Shown here: positions 10,211 to 22,247 of the stretch, one piece after another
How the letters are laid out: each line of letters begins with the position of its first letter
Numbering within the stretch: the stretch's first letter is position 1
Assembly (NCBI RefSeq): GCF_009914755.1
Contig: NC_060936.1
DNA from: the human T2T-CHM13v2.0 reference genome, Homo sapiens
Direction: 5' to 3' (one strand)
Length of the DNA stretch: 64,000 nucleotides
Position numbers and translations under genes: made by a program
The notes under the pieces: model-generated
The model's database searches: none
What the model saw: the letters and a program-made list of their open reading frames with translations, nothing else
Told to the model about the DNA's origin: nothing

Positions 10211-12281
10211 TCAGTGCTCTTTCTTCTTATGCCATGCTCGGCCATGAGGAGAAATCCTGAAGTTCTGCACATTCTTTGAAAAAACACAGTGATGGAAGTG
10301 AGACAGATTGTGGGCACAGGGCCATAGTCCTGTTGAATCTGCACTTGTTCCACAAGGTTTGAGTTGTTCCCTCAGACTTTCAGAAAATCATTGTTGTGCT
10401 AATGTTTCTTCTTGCTTTCTTTTAAGGAAAAGTGTTTGAGAAGAGTACAGCACAGCCACCACCATTTTTTCCTAGGTCAACAAGCATGCCTGTGTTCTGA
10501 TAATTAAGAGTCCTAATGATACACATCTAATGGTAAAAAGTTCAGGGTTACTGACTTTAGTCATGGCTGGATCCAGGTGTTTAACATGATTTTATCAGGA
10601 AGTTGCTTCTCTCTCTGCCTCTGCCTTCCTTGGCATTGAATTCATTTTTAGGATGTGTGGGGGTTTACTGTTGAGGTGGTCACTGGCAGCTCTAGGTTTA
10701 TGTTCTCACAAATGAATGACTCTTTCTTGATCACACCAGCAGTACTTCTAGGATTATCTCTTATTGGACCAATTTATGTCCCATTTCTACTGCTGAGCCA
10801 TTTCATCAGTTCATTGTTAAACCATTCAGACAAAATACATTGACTGCTTTCCATGTTCCAGCAGCCACACACTTTTTATGAGGAGCCTTCAAATATTAAA
10901 ATAAAGGAATACTAGCAGTATTTTTTAGGAATAATGTGTTTTTCAAGTTCAATGCTATATTACATTAAGCACTGTGAAGCCAGGCTGTGGGAACAATAAA
11001 GCTTTTTTTGATGAACCTCAAAATTGCAAATTGAGGTGGTGAATGACAGTCATCTCCTTTTCTCTGAGGAACCCAAATGTCAGAATGCACCCATGTCTGA
11101 GGTCATCCTTCCTTTGAAATACCTGCCACGATGACTGCAGCTCCTGCAGGTTTCCCTCCCCAGGTGAGTCTGGGCATCCCTGTGGGAATCCTTGCCCATT
11201 CCACACACCCATCTAGTTGCTGCCTGCCTCTGCTGGCTCCAGGACTGCTGCTGTCTTCTTTCCATGTGCTGCTGCTTGCCCCTGGTTGACTTTCAGCTGA
11301 CACAGGAAAGCTCTTTTTGAAGCTGCTGCCATTCCTTCCTGTATAGAATCCAGGACTGTCCTGTTTCCTATAGTAATGGCAAAGATTGGGCTGAGTCTTT
11401 TGACAGGGTTCTACTGGATATTTTGGGAGAGAACTACAAGGATGAGAGAAACCTACACTTACTACCAGATAGAATTGGGCTCAGAGGTTCCTTTCCTGGG
11501 GCTCTCTGAAGGGTTCTCTCTTACTCTTGTCCATCTCATCTGCTCCAACAGAAGTGTCCTCTAGTGTGTCTGTGTCTCTATGTCCAGGTTCCAGTGAGCG
11601 CAGGGCTCAGAGACATGAAGGAGTAAGTCATGCCTCACTCATCCCGGGCTAAGGCTTTAATTTCCTATCTCAGCACCTACTTCGTCCCAGCATAGTTAAA
11701 AATACGAATATTCATTCCCTTCAGGGAAGACCTGCTTCTTGTCGCTACACAGAACTTTACTCTTTAGCCTTCAGTAGATCAAGGTCACTAATACGTAAGT
11801 CACAAGGTCACTAATACATAATATATAAGTCCATATAGCAATCCATTTCCCAAAATGTGTGTTTTTCAGTCTTAAATAACAGCACAGTGGTATAGCAGCA
11901 ACAGGTCCATGCTGAGATGCACCAAACGCAGTCCTGCTTCTCTTCCTTGTCTCGTCCTCTGTGAGGGGAACAGATGGGGACCTTTAACATTTCCTTCCAA
12001 GCACCTGTCTATTTGATTTCTGATCCTCCTGCAAACTATCTTTTGAAATGGAACATACCCAACTCTGAAAGAATAAAAAAATGTTTAGCTATGGTAGTCG
12101 ATGAAATCCTCACAGAAAAGAAACTTTTTTACCCCCAAAGGCAATAGTGTTCACAGAGACATAGCTTTAGGAGGCTCTGAGCATAACCAAACAGGTATTG
12201 AGCTTGTTTGTCTAAATTAGATGTATTTAATCTATCGGATTCCTGACTTTCTCCAGATGTTCTTGCTTTACTTTTGCATAT

Positions 12282-12344
12282 TGTACTAGTTAGTGTTCTC
12301 CAGAGAAACAGAATCAATAGATTTACTTACTGATTGATTTTATT
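12282..12344 (-). mobile_element. MLT2 (ERVL) LTR, left part, split by L1 insertion
   Basis: tgtactagttagtgttctccagagaaacagaatcaatag is the MLT2 terminus; continues at 19591. Confidence 0.8.
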
Positions 12345-12705
12345 TTATTTTTTTCTTGAATAAAGCATGGTATAGTCATTAGTTACAACCCTTAGAACAG
12401 TCATTAGGCCAGTCATGCCATAAGACAAGCCCTCAACTCCATCTGTGGCAAGGGGATTTGTTTGCCTGGACTTTTGGAAAATACTAGGATTCTAATTACA
12501 CCCCAAATTCAAATTGTGTGGGTGTTGCTTTCTTTTCCTGAATCAGATAATACAAGCTGATATAAAGCAGATAATAAAAACGTCATACTTCAAAGGCCTT
12601 GTGAACCAACATCCTTTCACAATTTTTAGATGAGATTTTGAATGTATAAACTTTCCCTGCAAACATGTTCTAGGGATGACTCAGTTTCTTTTAAAATCTG
12701 TGTAA

Positions 12706-13004
12706 GGCTGGGCGTGGCAGCTCAAGCCTGTAAATCCCAGTACTTTGAGAGGCCAAGGAGGAAGGATGGCTTGAGGCCAGGAATTCGAGACCAACCTGGA
12801 CACCATAGTGAGACCCCCGTCTCTACAAAATTTTTTAAAAATTTGCCAGATGTAGTGCTCTGTGCCTGTAGTTCTAGTTGCTTGAGAGGCGGAGGCGAGA
12901 GGATTGCTGGAGCCCCAGAGTTCAAGGTTTCAGTGAGCTGTAATTGTGCTACTGCACTCCAGCTTAGGCAACAAAGCCAGACCTCATCTCTTAAAGAAAA
13001 AAAA
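12706..13004 (+). mobile_element. AluJ within transduced segment
   Basis: Diverged dimer, ggatggcttgaggccaggaattcgagacc (J-type), A tail. Confidence 0.85.
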
Positions 13005-13237
13005 CTTCATAAACAGCTCAATGTTAGTGAATTTTCACTGACTATATTAGAAGACACTGAAAATAATTCTGCCAAGAAATTCTCTGCAGAAACTTAGACA
13101 ATTTCTGAACCACCTTTAAATCCTCCTATTGACGGAGGCTTGGAGGGCATTGTGTTAGAGGGGCACGTGCCACTGGTTGGCTACTCTGAGGCAGACTCTG
13201 CACCCAGCAGTGAATATTTGTGTGGTTTTCTCCACAG

Positions 13238-13357
13238 GTCCCGTGGGAAGATCTCCGTTATCTCTTTGATGAGATCATGTATGGAGGCCACATCACAGAT
13301 GACAGGGATTGCAAACTGTGTCGGGTGTATTTAGAAGAATTCATGAATCCATCTCTG
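13238..13357 (+). pseudogene. DNAH11: Orphan single-exon copy of axonemal dynein heavy chain (DNAH11-like), 120 nt
   Basis: ttttctccacag|GTC...CTG|gtaag; translates [40 protein letters not shown] versus recalled DNAH11 [40 protein letters not shown] (37/40); no neighbouring dynein exons seen in window. Confidence 0.85.
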
Positions 13358-13660
13358 GTAAGACATTTGTAAATTAATTAACTTGTAATTTCACTGAGGA
13401 AAAAATTCTGGTAAGAATTTTATAAACTAATTATACTATGGGTAATTCTTTTTTTTATTCTTATACTTTAAGTTTTAGGGTACATGTGCACAACTTGCAG
13501 GTTTGTTACATAAGTATACATGTGCCATGTTCGTGTGCTGCACCCATTAACTCGTCATTTAACATTAGGTATATCTCCTAATGCTATCCCTCCCCCCTCC
13601 CCCCACCCCACAACAGGCCTGGGTGATGTTCTCCTTCCTGTGTCCATGTGTTTTCATTGT

Positions 13661-17486
<3,826 letters not shown>

Positions 17487-17549
17487 TATGATGTTAGCTG
17501 GTTATTTTGCTCGTTAGTTGATGCAGTTTCTTCCTAGCCTCGATGGTCT

Positions 17550-18566
17550 TTACAATTTGGCATGTTTTTGCAGTGGCTGGTACCAGTTGTTCCTTTCTAT
17601 GTTTAGCACTTCCTTCAGGAGCTCTTTTAGGGCAGGCCTGGTGGTGACAAAATCTCTCAGCATTTGCTTGTCTGTAAAGTATTATATTTCTCCTTCACTT
17701 ATGAAGCTTAGTTTGGCTGGATATGAAGTTCTGGGTTGAAAATTCTTTGCTTTAACAGTGTTGAATATTGGCCCCCACTGTCTTCTGGCTTGTAGAGTTT
17801 CTGCCAAGAGATCATCTGTTAGTCTGATGAGCTTCCCTTTGTGGGTAACCCAACCTTTCTCTCTGGCTTCCCTTAACAGTTTTTCCTTCATTTCAACTTT
17901 GGTAAATCTGACAATTATGTGTCTTAGAGTTGCTCTTCTTGAGGAGTATCTTTGTGGTGTTCTCTGTATTTCCTGAATCTGAACGTTGGCCTGCCTTGCT
18001 AGATTGGGGAAGTTCTCCTGGATAATATCCTGCAGAGTGTTTTCCAGCTTGGTTCCATTCTCCCCGTCACTTTCAGGTACACCAGTCAGATGTAGATTTG
18101 GTCTTTTCACATAGTCCCATATTTCTTGGAGGCTTTGTTCATTTCTTTTTATTCTTTTTTCTCCAAACTTCTCTTCTCGTTTCATTTCATTTATTTGATC
18201 TTCCATCACTGATACCCTTTCTTCTAGTTGGTCGAATTGGCTGCTGAGGCTTGTGCATTCTTCACGTAGTTCTCGTGCCTTGGTTTTCAGCTCCATCAGG
18301 TCCTTTGAGGACTTCTCTGCATTGGTTATTCTAGTTATCCATTCGTCTCATCTTTTTTCAAGGTTTTTAACTTCTTTGCCATGGGTTCGAACTTCCTCCT
18401 TTAGCTCGGAGTAGTTTGATCATCTGAAGCTTTCTTCTCTCAACTCGTCAAAGTCATTCTCCGTCCAGCTTTGTTCTGTTGCTGGTGAGGAGCTGCGTTC
18501 CTTTGGAGGAGGAGAGGTGCTCTGATTTTGAGAATTTTCAGTTTTTCTGCTATGTTTTTTCCCCAT
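17550..18566 (-). pseudogene. L1 ORF1, disrupted
   Basis: ATGGGGAAAAAACATAGCAG start; premature TGA near 18420; ORF 17682..18296 is ORF1p-like. Confidence 0.92.
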
Positions 18567-19141
18567 CTTTGTGGTTTTATCTACCTTTGGTCTTTGATGA
18601 TGGTGACGTACAGATGGGTTTTTGGTGTGGATGTCCTTTCTGTTTGTTAGTTTTCCTTCTAACAGTCAGGATCCTCAGCTGCAGGTCTGTTGGGGTTTGC
18701 TGGAGGTCCACTCCAGACCCTGTTTGCCTGGGTATCAGCAGCAGAGGCTGCAGAACAGCAGATATTGGTGAACAGCAGATGTTGCTGCCTGATCGTTTCT
18801 CTGGAGGTTTTGTCTCAGAGGAGTACCCGGCCATGTGAGGTGTCAGTCTGCCCCTACTAGGGGGTGCCTCCCAGTTAGGCTACTCCGGGGTCAGGGACCC
18901 ACTTGAGGAGGCAGTCTGTCCATTCTTAGATCTCCAGCTGCATGCTTGGAGAACCACTACTGTCTTCCAAGCTGTCAGACAGGGACATTTAAGTCTGCAG
19001 AGGTTTCTGCTGCCTTTTGTTTGGCTATGACCTGTCCCCAGAGGTGAAGTCTACAGAGGCAGGCAGGCCTCCTTGAGCTGCGGTGGGCTCCACCCAGTTT
19101 GGGCTTCCCAGCCACTTTGTTTACCTACTCAAGCCTCGGCA

Positions 19142-19324
19142 ATGGCGGGCGCCCCTCCCCCAGCCTCACTGCCGCCTTGCAGTTTGATCGCAGACTGCTG
19201 TGCTAGCAATGAGCGAGGCTCCGTGGGCACAGGACGCTCTGAGGCAGGTGCAGGATACAATCTCCTGGTGTGCCATTTGCTAAGACCATCAGAAAAGCAC
19301 AGTGTTAGGGTGGGAGTGGCCTGA
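19142..19324 (+). other. L1 antisense ORF0, truncated to 60 aa
   Basis: MAGAPPPASLPPCSLIADCCASN... matches primate ORF0 N-terminus; ends early at TGA. Confidence 0.75.
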
Positions 19325-19590
19325 TTTTCCAGGTGACGTCTGTCACTCCTTTCCTTGGCTAGGAAAGGGAATTCCCTGACCCCTTGTGCTTCCTGGGTGA
19401 GGCGATGCCTTGCCCTGCTTTGGCTCACACTTGGTGCACTGCATCCACTGTCCTGCACCCACTGTCTGACAATCTCCAGTGAGATGAACCCGGTACCTCA
19501 GTTGGAAATGCAGAAATCTTTCATCTTCTGCGTCGCTCATGCTGGGAGCTGTAGACTGGAGCTGTTCCTATTCGGCCATCTTGGCTCCAC

Positions 19591-20127
19591 CTGATTGATT
19601 TTATTAATTATGGGAATTGGTTCACATGGTTATGAAGGCTGAGAAGTTCCACCGTATGATATTTGCAAGCTGGAGATCCAGGAAAACTAGTGGGGTAATT
19701 CAATCCAAGTTTGAAGGCCTGAGAACTTAGAGGGTAGGAGGGTGTGTTGATATAAGTCCTGGACTCTGAAGGCCAAAGAGCTTGGTGTGAGAAAGCAGGA
19801 GAAGATAGATGTCCCTGTTAAAGGAGAGAGAGAATTTGCTCATCCCTGATCTCTTTGTCCTATTCAGGCCTTCTACAGATTGGATGATGCCCGGCCACAC
19901 TGGGGAGGGCAGATCTGCTTTACCAATCCAAATATGAACTGGATATTCTGCCAATCCAAATATGCCAATCCAAATACGAACCTCTTCCTGAAACACCGTC
20001 ACAGGCACATAGAAATAACGCTTAACTAATAATGTTAAAATTTAGTATTAAATAATAATGTTTAAAATAATGTTTATAGGGGCACCTCATGACCCAGTCA
20101 GGTTGACACATAAAATTAACTTTTACA
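19591..20127 (-). mobile_element. MLT2 LTR, right part
   Basis: ggaattggttcacatggttatgaaggctgagaagttcc...ccagtcaggttgacacataaaattaac. Confidence 0.85.
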
Positions 20128-22247
20128 TGTAGCTAAAAAATCATTGATATGGTTTTCTTGAAGAAAGAAAGAAGGAAAGAAAGAAAACCTGAAAAATGGT
20201 TTGGCTTATCCCAAAGGTGAGATCAGGTTTTGGTCAGGTTCCTAGCTGGCACACTCAAGAATCTTCCATGCACAATCCTACCTTAACTCTCATATTTTTA
20301 TCCTCTACTACTAGCCAGTGTGTCATTGGCTTCAGCTAGAACAAGACCTTCACTCTCCCTTGTAGGTTCTGTGCCAATTCAGCCTCCACACTTTTATTTA
20401 TGTTGTGATACCACTGGGTTCCCTCTCAAATTCTGTCCAAATCCCATCTATCCTTCAAGGGCCTAAAGTCAACCTTGTCTAGGAAATCCTCCCCAACTAG
20501 CACGCTGAATTTCCATCATGTTTTATTTCTCTCAACAATTTGGACTTATTTAAGTTGCAGATAGGAAAAATGAGGTGAAAGGTCTATTATCTAACTTCAT
20601 TATTTTAAAAGAGGGAACAGCTTTGACTAAACACACCTTGATTTGTCCATTGAGGGTACAAGAAAACTCAAAAGGCATGGGTTTTGGTGGGCTCAGAGGA
20701 ACAAAGGGAGATGGTTCAGTTGCTCCGACTGAGGGAAAAAAGAATCATTGGTTATCTGCCTCTGGTGGGGGAGTAGTGGGGAGAAGAGAAAAGAAGAGAG
20801 GTGATGAGGAGGAGTTGTGGGGAGGAGAAGGAAGAACCAGTGAGATCAGCTGAGGTGGGGCTTCTGAGAGCTGAAGAGCAAATTCCCCATGGCGAAGGGC
20901 CTTTACAAGGGGGAGTGTCTGATATTCATTGTGAAGTTGTCTTGTGCTTTGTTGATGTCATTCCTTTTCTCTGCTTCCCCCACACCTCAAGGAAAGTCTG
21001 ACACTCTCACAAGAGCCTTGAGCTGGCAGGTTTTTTGCAGGGAATTGAAGAATGAGCTGGGTTTTATAGCTGGGTTGACAGAGTGTGAATATGAAAGCAT
21101 GGGCGAAGAAAAGCAAGAGGCTGGACATAATGACTGCACCCAGACTTTGGCGAAATCTTTGGGAAGAATCTTTGAGGAGTTCTAGTTGATTGTAACCATA
21201 TCTCAGGGGCTCACAATGGGGCTTCTCTGATTATAGTCCCAAGGTCCCACTCCTCCAGAAAGCTACTTCTCATTCTTTCTTTGTTCTTTCTTCTTCATTC
21301 TTTCTCACTTTCTATGATGTCTCCTCCCTATTCCTTTCCCGCTCTTGTTTTATCCTGTCTTATTTACAGCAATTTGGCTTCTCTCATCCTTTTATCATCC
21401 TTCTCTGTAAGCACGATAAAGACCTGGTAATGAACCAAATGATCAAGAGATACTTCCTTTTGGAATAATGGGAGGTAGAATGCAGAGGAGGTAGACTGCA
21501 AATCTTTATAGTTTAATATATTTTTGTATCCATCTTACACTCATCTGTACAAACACATGTATACATATAGGTCTTATTAGAACCCTCAATTTTTAAGTTC
21601 TATGACAGTAGGGACCATGGCTTTTTCATAAGTACCCTTTCTGTCCCCTCACAACAATCCAGCGTGGAACCAACCATATAGCCCTTAATCAATGAATTAT
21701 AGAGGACCTTTAGTGAGTTACATGACATCTTGGGAGGAGGGAGGAGATAGAATGGAGAAGGGGATGGGATTGAAATTTATAGAGCCTCTGTTGCATGCCA
21801 GGCAGAGTACAAGGCACTTTACATGTAACATCTACAGTATACTTAATGCCCACTATGCATCCAGCATGCTATGCAAGTTCTTATTTAATTCTTACTGCTG
21901 GACCATGTTACTCAATTTCAGGAGTTGTGCAATATGGCGCCCATGTTCATAACCATCATGTAACACAGATATCATGAGTACTATTGTACAGGTGAGGAGT
22001 GTGGGCTTCCAAGAAGCATTAACTCTGTCAAGTTTCCATAGCTAGATTTGCAGAAACGTAATATTTGCCCTGGTCTTTTTGACTCCATGGCCGTGGTCTT
22101 TTTTTCTCACTTTACCACAAAACAAATCTATTTCAAATATTTGATGATAAGATATGTAGAAGCCAGGAATGAGGAAGCCGGTGCTCATACCCAATATGGT
22201 ATGGAGTAAGAAAGGAATGGGTGGACACAGGATGACACATTCCACTC

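What the first reader, a model, noticed from the sequence alone, without database searches (positions are those of the whole stretch)
12330..19605. Full-length L1 with a ~1.1-kb 3' transduction, bracketed by one 15-bp TSD inside an MLT2 LTR
Seen: the L1's own poly(A) (13449-13456) has no copy of the 5' flank beside it. The 5' flank CTGATTGATTTTATT (19591-19605) reappears exactly at 12330-12344, next to a second T-run. Removing 12345-19605 rejoins the two halves of one MLT2 LTR, and the site reads TT/AATAAA on the minus strand, close to the L1 endonuclease consensus TT/AAAA. Established: L1 read-through mobilises 3' flanking DNA. Inference: 12355-13448 is a tag from the donor locus, identifying the parent element. 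No canonical AATAAA is visible just before the distal tail.
Basis: partly seen in the sequence, partly recalled or inferred. Interest (0 to 1): 0.88.

Follow-up and report, generated by a model that had tools for sequence, protein, structure and literature searches.

The report
L1 transduction carrying a dynein exon
An old, dead L1 jumping gene on human chromosome 12 dragged along 1.1 kb of chromosome 7, including one complete exon of a dynein motor gene that is now annotated as an exon of a non-coding RNA: a clear example of a well-known process.

Summary
The 15-mer occurs exactly twice in the window, at 12330-12344 and 19591-19605. It brackets a broken, essentially full-length minus-strand L1 (13449-19590) plus 1.1 kb of non-L1 DNA (12352-13448) that ends in a second short A-tail. 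The two outer flanks are neighbouring parts of one interspersed repeat in 13 of 18 other copies.

The tag has exactly one other copy in the assembly, chr7:22019693-22020796, 96% identical. That copy lies in a plus-strand dynein heavy-chain gene, taken to be DNAH11 from its place and paralogy.

- No L1 lies at or within 10 kb of the chr7 source. The breakpoint there reads TT/AAGAAT on the L1-sense strand, so the parent was probably an insertion that was never fixed. No sibling carries the tag.
- The tag holds a complete 120-nt dynein exon with both splice sites, antisense to the L1. It coincides exactly with exon 13238-13357 of the predicted lncRNA LOC105369958.
- Tag-source divergence (K2P 0.032-0.037) suggests roughly 12-18 My.

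This is a new member of a known kind, of modest interest.

The parts
12279..12329 (+). Left part of the interrupted interspersed repeat (LTR-like; 'MLT2' by recall only), up to the target-site duplication
   Evidence: Other genomic copies match window ~12279-12321. In 13 of 18 fetched copies this part lies directly upstream of the right part, in the same orientation.
12330..12344 (.). Target-site duplication, copy next to the distal A-tail
   Evidence: Exact 15-mer with only two copies in the window; 0 of 100 shuffles gave two. Longest shared word is 15 against a random maximum of 11 in 296 pairs.
12345..12351 (-). Untemplated distal tail (AAAATAA on the L1-sense strand); 12352-12354 are A on that strand too but are templated by chr7
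   Evidence: Alignment of the window with the chr7 source: homology starts at tttcttgaataaa (blastn limits).
12352..13448 (-). 3' transduced tag copied from chr7:22019693-22020796 (a dynein heavy-chain gene intron-exon-intron stretch, read antisense by the L1 transcript)
   Evidence: 96.0% identity over 1104 columns to one other locus only. The Alu-free halves hit only self and chr7. 39 mismatches and 5 indel columns in 1099 aligned positions.
12705..13005 (+). Alu element inside the tag, also present in the chr7 source, so older than the transduction
   Evidence: 47 of the 49 matches cover only query ~335-661. The chr7 alignment runs through it, with 15 mismatches in 301 nt. The subfamily (J-type) is recalled, not tested.
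13238..13357 (+). Complete dynein heavy-chain exon (40 codons, AAA-lid domain) with AG acceptor and GT donor. It coincides exactly with exon 3 of the predicted lncRNA LOC105369958.
   Evidence: Translation. PF18198 at 48.3 bits. Best solved relatives are DNAH17 and DNAH9. Splice-site flanks are identical to chr7, and the exon differs at 5 nt, giving 4 amino-acid changes. The lncRNA exon coordinates come from the hub's annotation.
13449..13456 (-). The L1's own short A-tail, now internal, directly after its AATAAA
   Evidence: Read directly. The chr7 homology ends at 13450.
13457..19590 (-). Essentially full-length L1 body with all reading frames broken. ORF1 piece at 17682-18296, endonuclease piece at 17142-17486, reverse-transcriptase pieces at 15221-16191.
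   Evidence: Pfam: Transposase_22 189.9 bits, Tnp_22_trimer, Tnp_22_dsRBD, Exo_endo_phos 42.4 bits, RVT_1 97.6 and 29.2 bits. The largest open piece is 284 aa. The 5' end starts within ~5 nt of that of two other full-length copies. The nearest 5'UTR relatives are 90-92% identical.
19591..19605 (.). Target-site duplication, copy at the L1 5' end
19606..20127 (+). Right part of the interrupted interspersed repeat
   Evidence: 39 non-self matches at 68-83% identity, 35 of them starting at query position 1-3, that is, exactly at the insertion point. The end near 20127 was read and judged by recall of the family's terminus.

Best explanation
This is a single L1 retrotransposition event with a 3' transduction. 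An active L1 once sat, antisense, in an intron of a plus-strand dynein heavy-chain gene on chromosome 7 (taken to be DNAH11), about 93 nt downstream of one of its exons. Transcription from that L1 ran through its own AATAAA and short A-tail. It continued for 1.1 kb across the downstream intron remnant, the exon (antisense), an old Alu and more intron, and the transcript received a poly(A) tail at a site with no canonical signal. The L1 machinery nicked chromosome 12 at TT/AATAAA inside an old LTR-type repeat and copied the whole RNA from that tail to within a few bases of the L1 5' end, producing a 15-bp target-site duplication. The parent L1 on chromosome 7 is absent from this assembly. Most likely it was a polymorphic insertion that was lost by drift or selection, while its one detectable offspring became fixed. 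Because the exon travelled antisense to the L1 RNA, it was not spliced out and arrived with both splice sites. On chromosome 12 it lies on the + strand, and a predicted lncRNA now uses it as an exon.

Shown here: the duplication, the two tails, the single source copy, the empty source site with an endonuclease-like motif, and the exon with its splice sites. Inferred: the lost parent, the date, the gene name and real use of the exon.
For: - The 15-bp duplication brackets L1 plus tag and nothing else pairs.
- The tag is 96% identical to one other locus. The Alu-free halves hit only self and chr7; the right half also hit two ~75-nt paralogous exon matches on C17.
- At the distal end, homology to chr7 stops and about 7 untemplated A follow, directly against the duplication.
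- At the proximal end, chr7 reads ...GGGCAATTCTT|AATG..., which is CATT/AAGAATTGCCC on the L1-sense strand. That is the cut site and duplication start expected for a parent L1 there. A TTAA core occurs at only 31 of 4099 positions of that locus, and a 1-mismatch or better match to TTAAAA at 17 of 4099.
- The chr12 target reads TT/AATAAA.
- The flanks rejoin one repeat: 13 of 18 other copies carry both halves in the same order and orientation.
- The chr7 locus is a real multi-exon gene. Three co-linear ORFs match PF18198 profile positions 1-55, 53-92 and 98-140. Its exon is intact and scores higher against DNAH17 and DNAH9 (66.9 and 66.6 bits) than the chr12 copy does (52.9 and 52.5 bits). The chr12 copy is therefore the derived, decaying one.
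- Read-through of the weak L1 signal and mobilisation of 3' flanks is established (passages of PMC9311842, whose reference list names Moran 1999, Goodier 2000 and Pickeral 2000).
Against: - No L1 lies beside the source. The 1.5-kb right flank of the chr7 copy has no L1 3' end, and megablast of the whole window L1 against chr7:22010701-22030700 gave no hit at E<=1e-5. The parent is therefore inferred, not seen.
- No AATAAA or ATTAAA precedes the distal tail in either copy. Only AAGAAA sits at the cleavage site itself.
- The distal tail is very short (7-10 nt) and interrupted by a T.
- No sibling carries the tag.
- No outgroup genome could be examined, so neither the empty chr12 site nor the date is confirmed.
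Confidence: 0.87

Rival explanations
1. Template-switch chimera. Reverse transcription at the chr12 nick began on a polyadenylated antisense transcript from the dynein gene intron, reached its 5' end, then jumped to the A-tail of a separate L1 RNA and copied it to its 5' end. No L1 need ever have sat on chromosome 7.
For: The chr7 source has no L1 at or within 10 kb. There is one duplication and one terminal tail, as in the chimeric retrocopies described by Buzdin and colleagues (recalled; not read here). Only a short A-run (8 nt) separates the two parts.
Against: It gives no reason why the 5' end of the chr7-derived part falls exactly on TT/AAGAAT on the L1-sense strand. That class of site is found at 0.4-0.8% of positions in that locus. 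It needs a polyadenylated 1.1-kb antisense intronic RNA ending at a site without a signal, and it needs that RNA to be used in trans. The L1 part includes its complete 3' end with AATAAA and tail, as a read-through transcript would.
Confidence: 0.07
2. Two separate insertions that happen to abut: a retrocopy of the chr7 fragment and an L1, one landing beside or inside the other.
For: Nested insertions are common in this kind of DNA. The tag ends in its own short A-rich tail.
Against: Neither part has its own duplication. The best shared words are 7 nt for L1 alone and 7 nt for the tag alone, within the random range (88 of 296 random pairs reach 7), against 15 for the whole unit. The join would have to fall exactly at the end of the L1 tail.
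Confidence: 0.03
3. DNA-level duplication of the chr7 segment (segmental duplication or repair-mediated capture) next to a pre-existing L1.
For: It is a 1.1-kb two-copy segment at 96% identity.
Against: The segment ends in an untemplated A-tail directly against a target-site duplication that also encloses the L1. Homology to chr7 stops precisely at the L1 tail. No further chr7 homology appears in window 11500-14500.
Confidence: 0.02

Closest known systems
L1 3' transduction (Moran 1999; Goodier 2000; Pickeral 2000; named in the reference list of PMC9311842)
   Same: An L1 with an internal A-tail, extra downstream DNA, a second tail, one target-site duplication around the whole unit, an endonuclease-type target, and a unique source locus elsewhere.
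   Different: The parent element is missing from the source locus. No canonical polyadenylation hexamer precedes the distal tail. The cargo includes a complete coding exon.
Exon shuffling by L1 retrotransposition (shown in cultured cells by Moran et al. 1999; cited as ref. 4 in PMC9311842)
   Same: A whole exon with both splice sites was moved to another chromosome by L1 read-through, and it is annotated as an exon of a new transcript.
   Different: Here the exon travelled antisense to the L1. The recipient is a predicted non-coding RNA, not a protein-coding gene. Its use rests on a predicted RefSeq model only.
L1 transduction families traced to a lineage progenitor (PMC6425141, passages read)
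   Same: The transduced tag serves as a barcode for the source locus.
   Different: That family has 14 members and a surviving progenitor. Here there is one offspring and an empty source site.
Chimeric retrocopies made by template switching of the L1 reverse transcriptase (Buzdin and colleagues; recalled, not read here)
   Same: Two unrelated RNA-derived parts lie inside one duplication with one terminal tail.
   Different: The junction on the source chromosome sits on an L1 endonuclease-type site, which that mechanism does not predict.

Membership tests
L1 3' transduction event | One target-site duplication encloses the L1 plus extra 3' DNA, and none encloses the L1 alone | tested here: met
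   A 15-nt exact pair occurs only at 12330-12344 and 19591-19605. The L1-only and tag-only junction pairs share at most 7 nt, and the random maximum was 11 in 296 pairs.
L1 3' transduction event | The L1's own polyadenylation signal and A-tail are internal, followed by non-L1 DNA that ends in a second, untemplated A-tail | tested here: met
   AATAAA plus 8 A lie at 13449-13462 on the sense strand. About 7 untemplated nt (AAAATAA) lie at 12345-12351.
L1 3' transduction event | The extra DNA has a high-identity copy at another locus | tested here: met
   chr7:22019693-22020796, 96.0% over 1104 columns. It is the only other copy.
L1 3' transduction event | The source copy lies directly 3' of an L1 in the same orientation | tested here: not met
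   No L1 lies in the 1.5-kb flank or in chr7:22010701-22030700 (megablast at E<=1e-5). The breakpoint is TT/AAGAAT on the L1-sense strand, a site class seen at 17-31 of 4099 positions. This fits an insertion allele that was lost. Source loci that lack the parent element in the reference genome are, to my recollection, already on record; I read no paper on this point here.
L1 3' transduction event | A downstream polyadenylation signal lies 10-35 nt before the distal tail | tested here: not met
   No AATAAA or ATTAAA lies on the sense strand anywhere in the tag in either copy. Of 16 hexamer variants, only AAGAAA was found, at the cleavage site itself.
L1 3' transduction event | The target site resembles the L1 endonuclease consensus TT/AAAA | tested here: met
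   The minus strand reads ...ATAATT/AATAAAATC. The consensus itself is recalled.
L1 3' transduction event | An empty pre-integration site with one copy of the duplicated word in species that predate the event | not testable with these tools
   No primate genome other than the window's own assembly is held.
LINE-1 | ORF1 (trimerisation, RBD-like and dsRBD-like domains), ORF2 endonuclease and reverse transcriptase in order on one strand; 5'UTR and 3' AATAAA with tail | tested here: met
   Pfam hits lie in the expected order on the minus strand. The 5' 691 nt matches many other copies end to end at 90-92%. All frames are broken. The subfamily (L1PA3-5 expected from the date) was not tested.
MLT2 (ERVL-type solitary LTR) | The flanks match the family and are adjacent in it | tested here: inconclusive
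The flanks belong to one interspersed repeat (1684 first-look candidates) and are adjacent in 13 of 18 other copies.
Dynein heavy chain, AAA-lid domain (PF18198); gene DNAH11 | The exon matches the domain; the source locus carries the neighbouring exons; the gene lies at 7p15.3 | tested here: met
   PF18198 at 48.3 bits for the chr12 copy. Three co-linear exons on chr7, the third below the curated cut-off at 20.2 bits. The closest solved paralogues, DNAH17 and DNAH9, are not identical. DNAH11 is at 7p15.3 (passage of PMC8919259). That 22.0 Mb of chr7 lies in this band and in this gene is recalled, not tested.

The most novel reading that the evidence does not exclude
This is a fixed, natural germline case of exon shuffling by L1. 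A complete coding exon of DNAH11, carried antisense and so protected from splicing in the L1 RNA, was planted on chromosome 12 about 12-18 My ago. It is genuinely spliced into an ape-specific lncRNA (LOC105369958), whose exon 3 would then owe its splice sites wholly to a dynein gene. The parent L1, 93 nt from a DNAH11 splice donor, was lost, perhaps because it harmed that gene.
Probability: 0.45. Interest if true: 0.5.

Novelty: new member of a known kind. Interest (0 to 1): 0.35.

Why it matters
3' transduction is textbook, and a single old example changes nothing about the mechanism. This one is unusually clean, and it shows three consequences in one locus:
- a source locus that can be identified although its L1 has vanished;
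- polyadenylation of a read-through transcript at a site with no recognisable signal;
- the transfer of an intact exon with working-looking splice sites to another chromosome, where an annotated transcript picks it up.

Fixed germline examples of exon shuffling by L1, proposed from cell-culture work, are seldom documented at base resolution. Practically, the 96%-identical copy of a DNAH11 exon on chromosome 12 could mislead short-read mapping or primer design for that exon of a primary ciliary dyskinesia gene.

Tried and rejected
- **Sibling L1s with the same tag.** Searches with the whole tag and with its two Alu-free halves found only the window itself and chr7, plus two ~75-nt paralogous exon matches on C17. 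Very short partial tags could be missed.
- **A parent L1 near the source.** None was found in 20 kb.
- **A closer L1 relative through the 5'UTR.** The 39 scored non-self hits are 90-92% identical, so no near-identical sibling or parent was seen. Only 40 of 6593 candidates were scored.
- **Separate duplications for the L1 alone or the tag alone.** Rejected.
- **A polyadenylation hexamer before the distal tail.** None was found.
- **Literature.**
  - 'DNAH11' + 'transduction' + 'LINE-1' gave 2 papers, both cancer studies by title and abstract.
  - 'LOC105369958' gave 0 papers.
  - 'transduced sequence'/'L1PA'/'exonization'/'lncRNA' gave 35 papers, of which 10 were listed and none was about this locus by title.
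  - I therefore found no printed description of this locus. Subscription papers and the supplementary tables of transduction catalogues (for example those of PMC9311842 and the T2T repeat papers) were not examined and may list it.
- **L1 subfamily and LTR family names.** Not obtainable, because no repeat library is available.
Full report
**1. Observation**

The window was read at both claimed boundaries.
- The 15-mer CTGATTGATTTTATT occurs exactly twice in the 64 kb, even allowing one mismatch, at 12330-12344 and 19591-19605. None of 100 dinucleotide-preserving shuffles gave two matches.
- Between the two copies lies a minus-strand L1. Its 5' end (GTGGAGCCAAGATGG... on the sense strand) abuts the right 15-mer at 19590. 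Its 3' end (...AAGAATAAAAAAAA) lies at 13449-13462.
- Then follow 1.1 kb that are not L1, and a T-rich run at 12345-12354 that abuts the left 15-mer.
- I looked for rival duplications. The longest word shared by the L1's own 3' junction and the 5' flank is 7 nt, and likewise for the tag's two ends. Of 296 random pairs of stretches of the same size, 88 share 7 nt or more and the maximum is 11. The bracketing pair shares 15 (repeat finder showed nothing else relevant).
- On the L1-sense strand the target reads TT/AATAAAATCAATCAG.

**2. The L1**

The eight minus-strand open pieces of 80 aa or more are at most 284 aa long. They carry, in the expected order:
- the three L1 ORF1 domains (17682-18296);
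- an endonuclease piece (17142-17486);
- reverse-transcriptase pieces (15221-16191).

The element is therefore dead. Its first base lies within about 5 nt of the 5' ends of two other full-length copies, which carry a few more G. It is essentially full length, 6142 nt with the tail. Its 5' 691 nt match 39 other scored copies at 90-92% identity and none more closely. Only 40 of 6593 candidates were scored.

**3. The flanks**

- The right flank (19606-19990) matched 39 other loci at 68-83% identity. In 35 of them the match starts at query position 1-3, that is, at the insertion point.
- The left flank matched 39 other loci over window ~12279-12321.
- I aligned both halves separately to 18 fetched copies. 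Thirteen carry both halves in the same order and orientation: L016-L020 with gaps of 12-63 nt, and L026-L031, L033 and L034. In L026 and L029 the two halves lie about 0.8-1.4 kb apart. Five copies carry only one half: L021-L024 and L032.

So the insertion split one interspersed repeat. The name MLT2 fits my memory of that LTR family but could not be tested.

**4. The tag and its source**

- Searching the window's own assembly with 12355-13448 gave, besides itself, one full-length match: chr7:22019696-22020794 at 96%. The other 47 matches cover only the Alu inside the tag.
- The two Alu-free halves hit only the window and chr7. The right half also gave two ~75-nt matches on C17 at 82-86%, within the exon.
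- A local blastn fixes the homology at window 12352-13450 against chr7:22019693-22020796. There are 39 mismatches and 5 indel columns in 1099 aligned positions, 8 of the mismatches in CpG context and 6 in one cluster at 13380-13385.

**5. The source is a dynein gene, and the tag holds one of its exons**

- Window 13238-13357 (+) translates without a stop to 40 residues. These match the dynein heavy-chain AAA-lid domain PF18198 at 48.3 bits, and among solved structures they match DNAH17 and DNAH9 best.
- On chr7, among the 104 plus-strand ORFs of 42 aa or more in chr7:22010701-22030700, three match PF18198. They are co-linear: profile positions 1-55, 53-92 (the transduced exon) and 98-140. The last is below the curated cut-off. 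The other 101 match nothing at E<=0.01. Chr7 therefore holds the real multi-exon gene.
- Its exon is intact and scores 66.9 and 66.6 bits against DNAH17 and DNAH9 without being identical to either.
- The chr12 copy differs at 5 nt, giving 4 amino-acid changes. Three of these hit residues that chr7, DNAH17 and DNAH9 share, so the chr12 copy is the one that drifted.
- I call the gene DNAH11 for two reasons. It is a third paralogue of the DNAH9/DNAH17 group, and DNAH11 lies at 7p15.3 (passage of PMC8919259). That 22.0 Mb of chr7 falls in that band and gene is my recollection.
- The acceptor (…CTCCACAG|) and donor (|GTAAGA…) flanks are identical in both copies.
- The exon coincides base for base with exon 13238-13357 of the predicted lncRNA LOC105369958 in the hub's annotation.

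**6. The junctions**

*Distal.* The window and chr7 agree up to ...CAAGAAA on the L1-sense strand. Then chr7 continues TCACTG..., while the window has AAAATAA followed by the duplication. This is an untemplated, short and decayed A-tail. No AATAAA or ATTAAA lies on the sense strand anywhere in the tag in either copy, and of 16 hexamer variants only AAGAAA occurs, at the cleavage site itself.

*Proximal.* Chr7 reads GGGCAATTCTT|AATGTTATT. On the L1-sense strand this is CATT/AAGAATTGCCC, exactly what a pre-integration site of an antisense L1 should look like, with the duplication starting AAGAATT. A TTAA core occurs at 31 of 4099 positions of that locus, and a 1-mismatch or better match to TTAAAA at 17 of 4099. 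Yet there is no L1. The flank beyond the breakpoint has no L1 3' end, and the whole window L1 has no megablast hit at E<=1e-5 in the 20 kb around the source.

**7. Mechanism**

The simplest account is a classical 3' transduction from a parent L1 inserted antisense about 93 nt downstream of that dynein exon.
- The parent's transcript read through its own signal.
- It was polyadenylated 1.1 kb on, at an unmarked site.
- It was inserted by target-primed reverse transcription at TT/AATAAA on chr12.

The parent allele is not in this assembly. Given the date below, it was most likely a polymorphic insertion that was never fixed. Its position close to a splice donor of an essential ciliary gene might have counted against it, but that is speculation. 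Read-through of the weak L1 signal is established knowledge (passages of PMC9311842). Tags as barcodes of progenitors are illustrated by PMC6425141.

Because the exon lay antisense in the L1 RNA, its splice sites were not recognisable in that RNA. This explains why exon and intron flanks arrived unspliced.

Rivals:
- A template switch from an antisense intronic RNA to an L1 RNA explains the missing parent, but not the endonuclease-type site at the chr7 breakpoint.
- Two abutting insertions lack their own duplications.
- DNA-level duplication is contradicted by the untemplated tail.

**8. Date**

The K2P distance between tag and source is 0.0365. It is 0.0317 with the six-column cluster counted once, and 0.0241 also without CpG-context changes. 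With a recalled neutral rate of 1.0-1.3e-9 per site per year, the first two values give 12-18 My. That is after the split from Old World monkeys and around the origin of the great apes. It agrees loosely with the 8-10% pairwise distance of the CpG-rich 5'UTR to its nearest relatives. The date is an inference, since no outgroup genome was available.

**9. Comparison with what is known, and novelty**

This works like, and is, an L1 3' transduction. Of the defining features tested, two are not met: an L1 at the source and a signal before the distal tail. To my recollection, offspring whose parent is missing from the reference genome are already on record.

I found no printed mention of this locus. 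Subscription papers and the supplementary tables of transduction catalogues were not seen.

It is a new member of a known kind. What lifts it slightly above routine is the intact, exonised dynein exon, a natural counterpart of the cell-culture 'exon shuffling' experiment.

**Verdict:** the finding is real and correctly interpreted, and of modest interest.

Noticed in passing
window 13238-13357: The third exon of the predicted lncRNA LOC105369958 is, base for base, the transduced dynein exon. With only 5 differences in 120 nt from the chr7 gene, RNA-seq support for this lncRNA exon could in part be mis-mapped DNAH11 reads, and the reverse is also possible.
   Followed up: partly
window 16748-16801: An exact 24-nt word occurs twice, 30 nt apart, inside the L1 ORF2 region. 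This is a small tandem duplication private to this copy or its lineage.
   Followed up: no
window 13354-13380 and 13407-13433: The exon's donor site with its first intron bases (TCTGGTAAGA...) is repeated 53 nt downstream at 85% identity. The second copy (13407-13433) is seen in chr7 as well; the first was not displayed for chr7 beyond 13375, so the repeat is probably but not demonstrably older than the transduction. It could act as an alternative donor.
   Followed up: no
window 13380-13385: Six consecutive mismatches and one indel against chr7, in an otherwise 97% identical stretch. This looks like one complex mutation rather than six substitutions.
   Followed up: no
L011 (G000:C17:79322731-79322808) and L012 (G000:C17:11841851-11841924): Two ~75-nt DNA matches at 86% and 82% to the exon part of the tag. 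They are presumably the paralogous exons of DNAH17 and DNAH9, the best solved relatives. Their chromosome-17 location is recalled, not checked.
   Followed up: no
window 19925-19985 and 20160-20195: Inside and just after the right half of the LTR there are three to four copies of a ~13-nt unit (ccaatccaaata...) and a (GAAA)n-type microsatellite.
   Followed up: no
L031 (G000:C21), locus positions 1490-1543 and 2523-2586: This copy of the repeat family has two matches to the left half about 1 kb apart. Only the second is followed by the right half, so this may be a rearranged or nested element.
   Followed up: no
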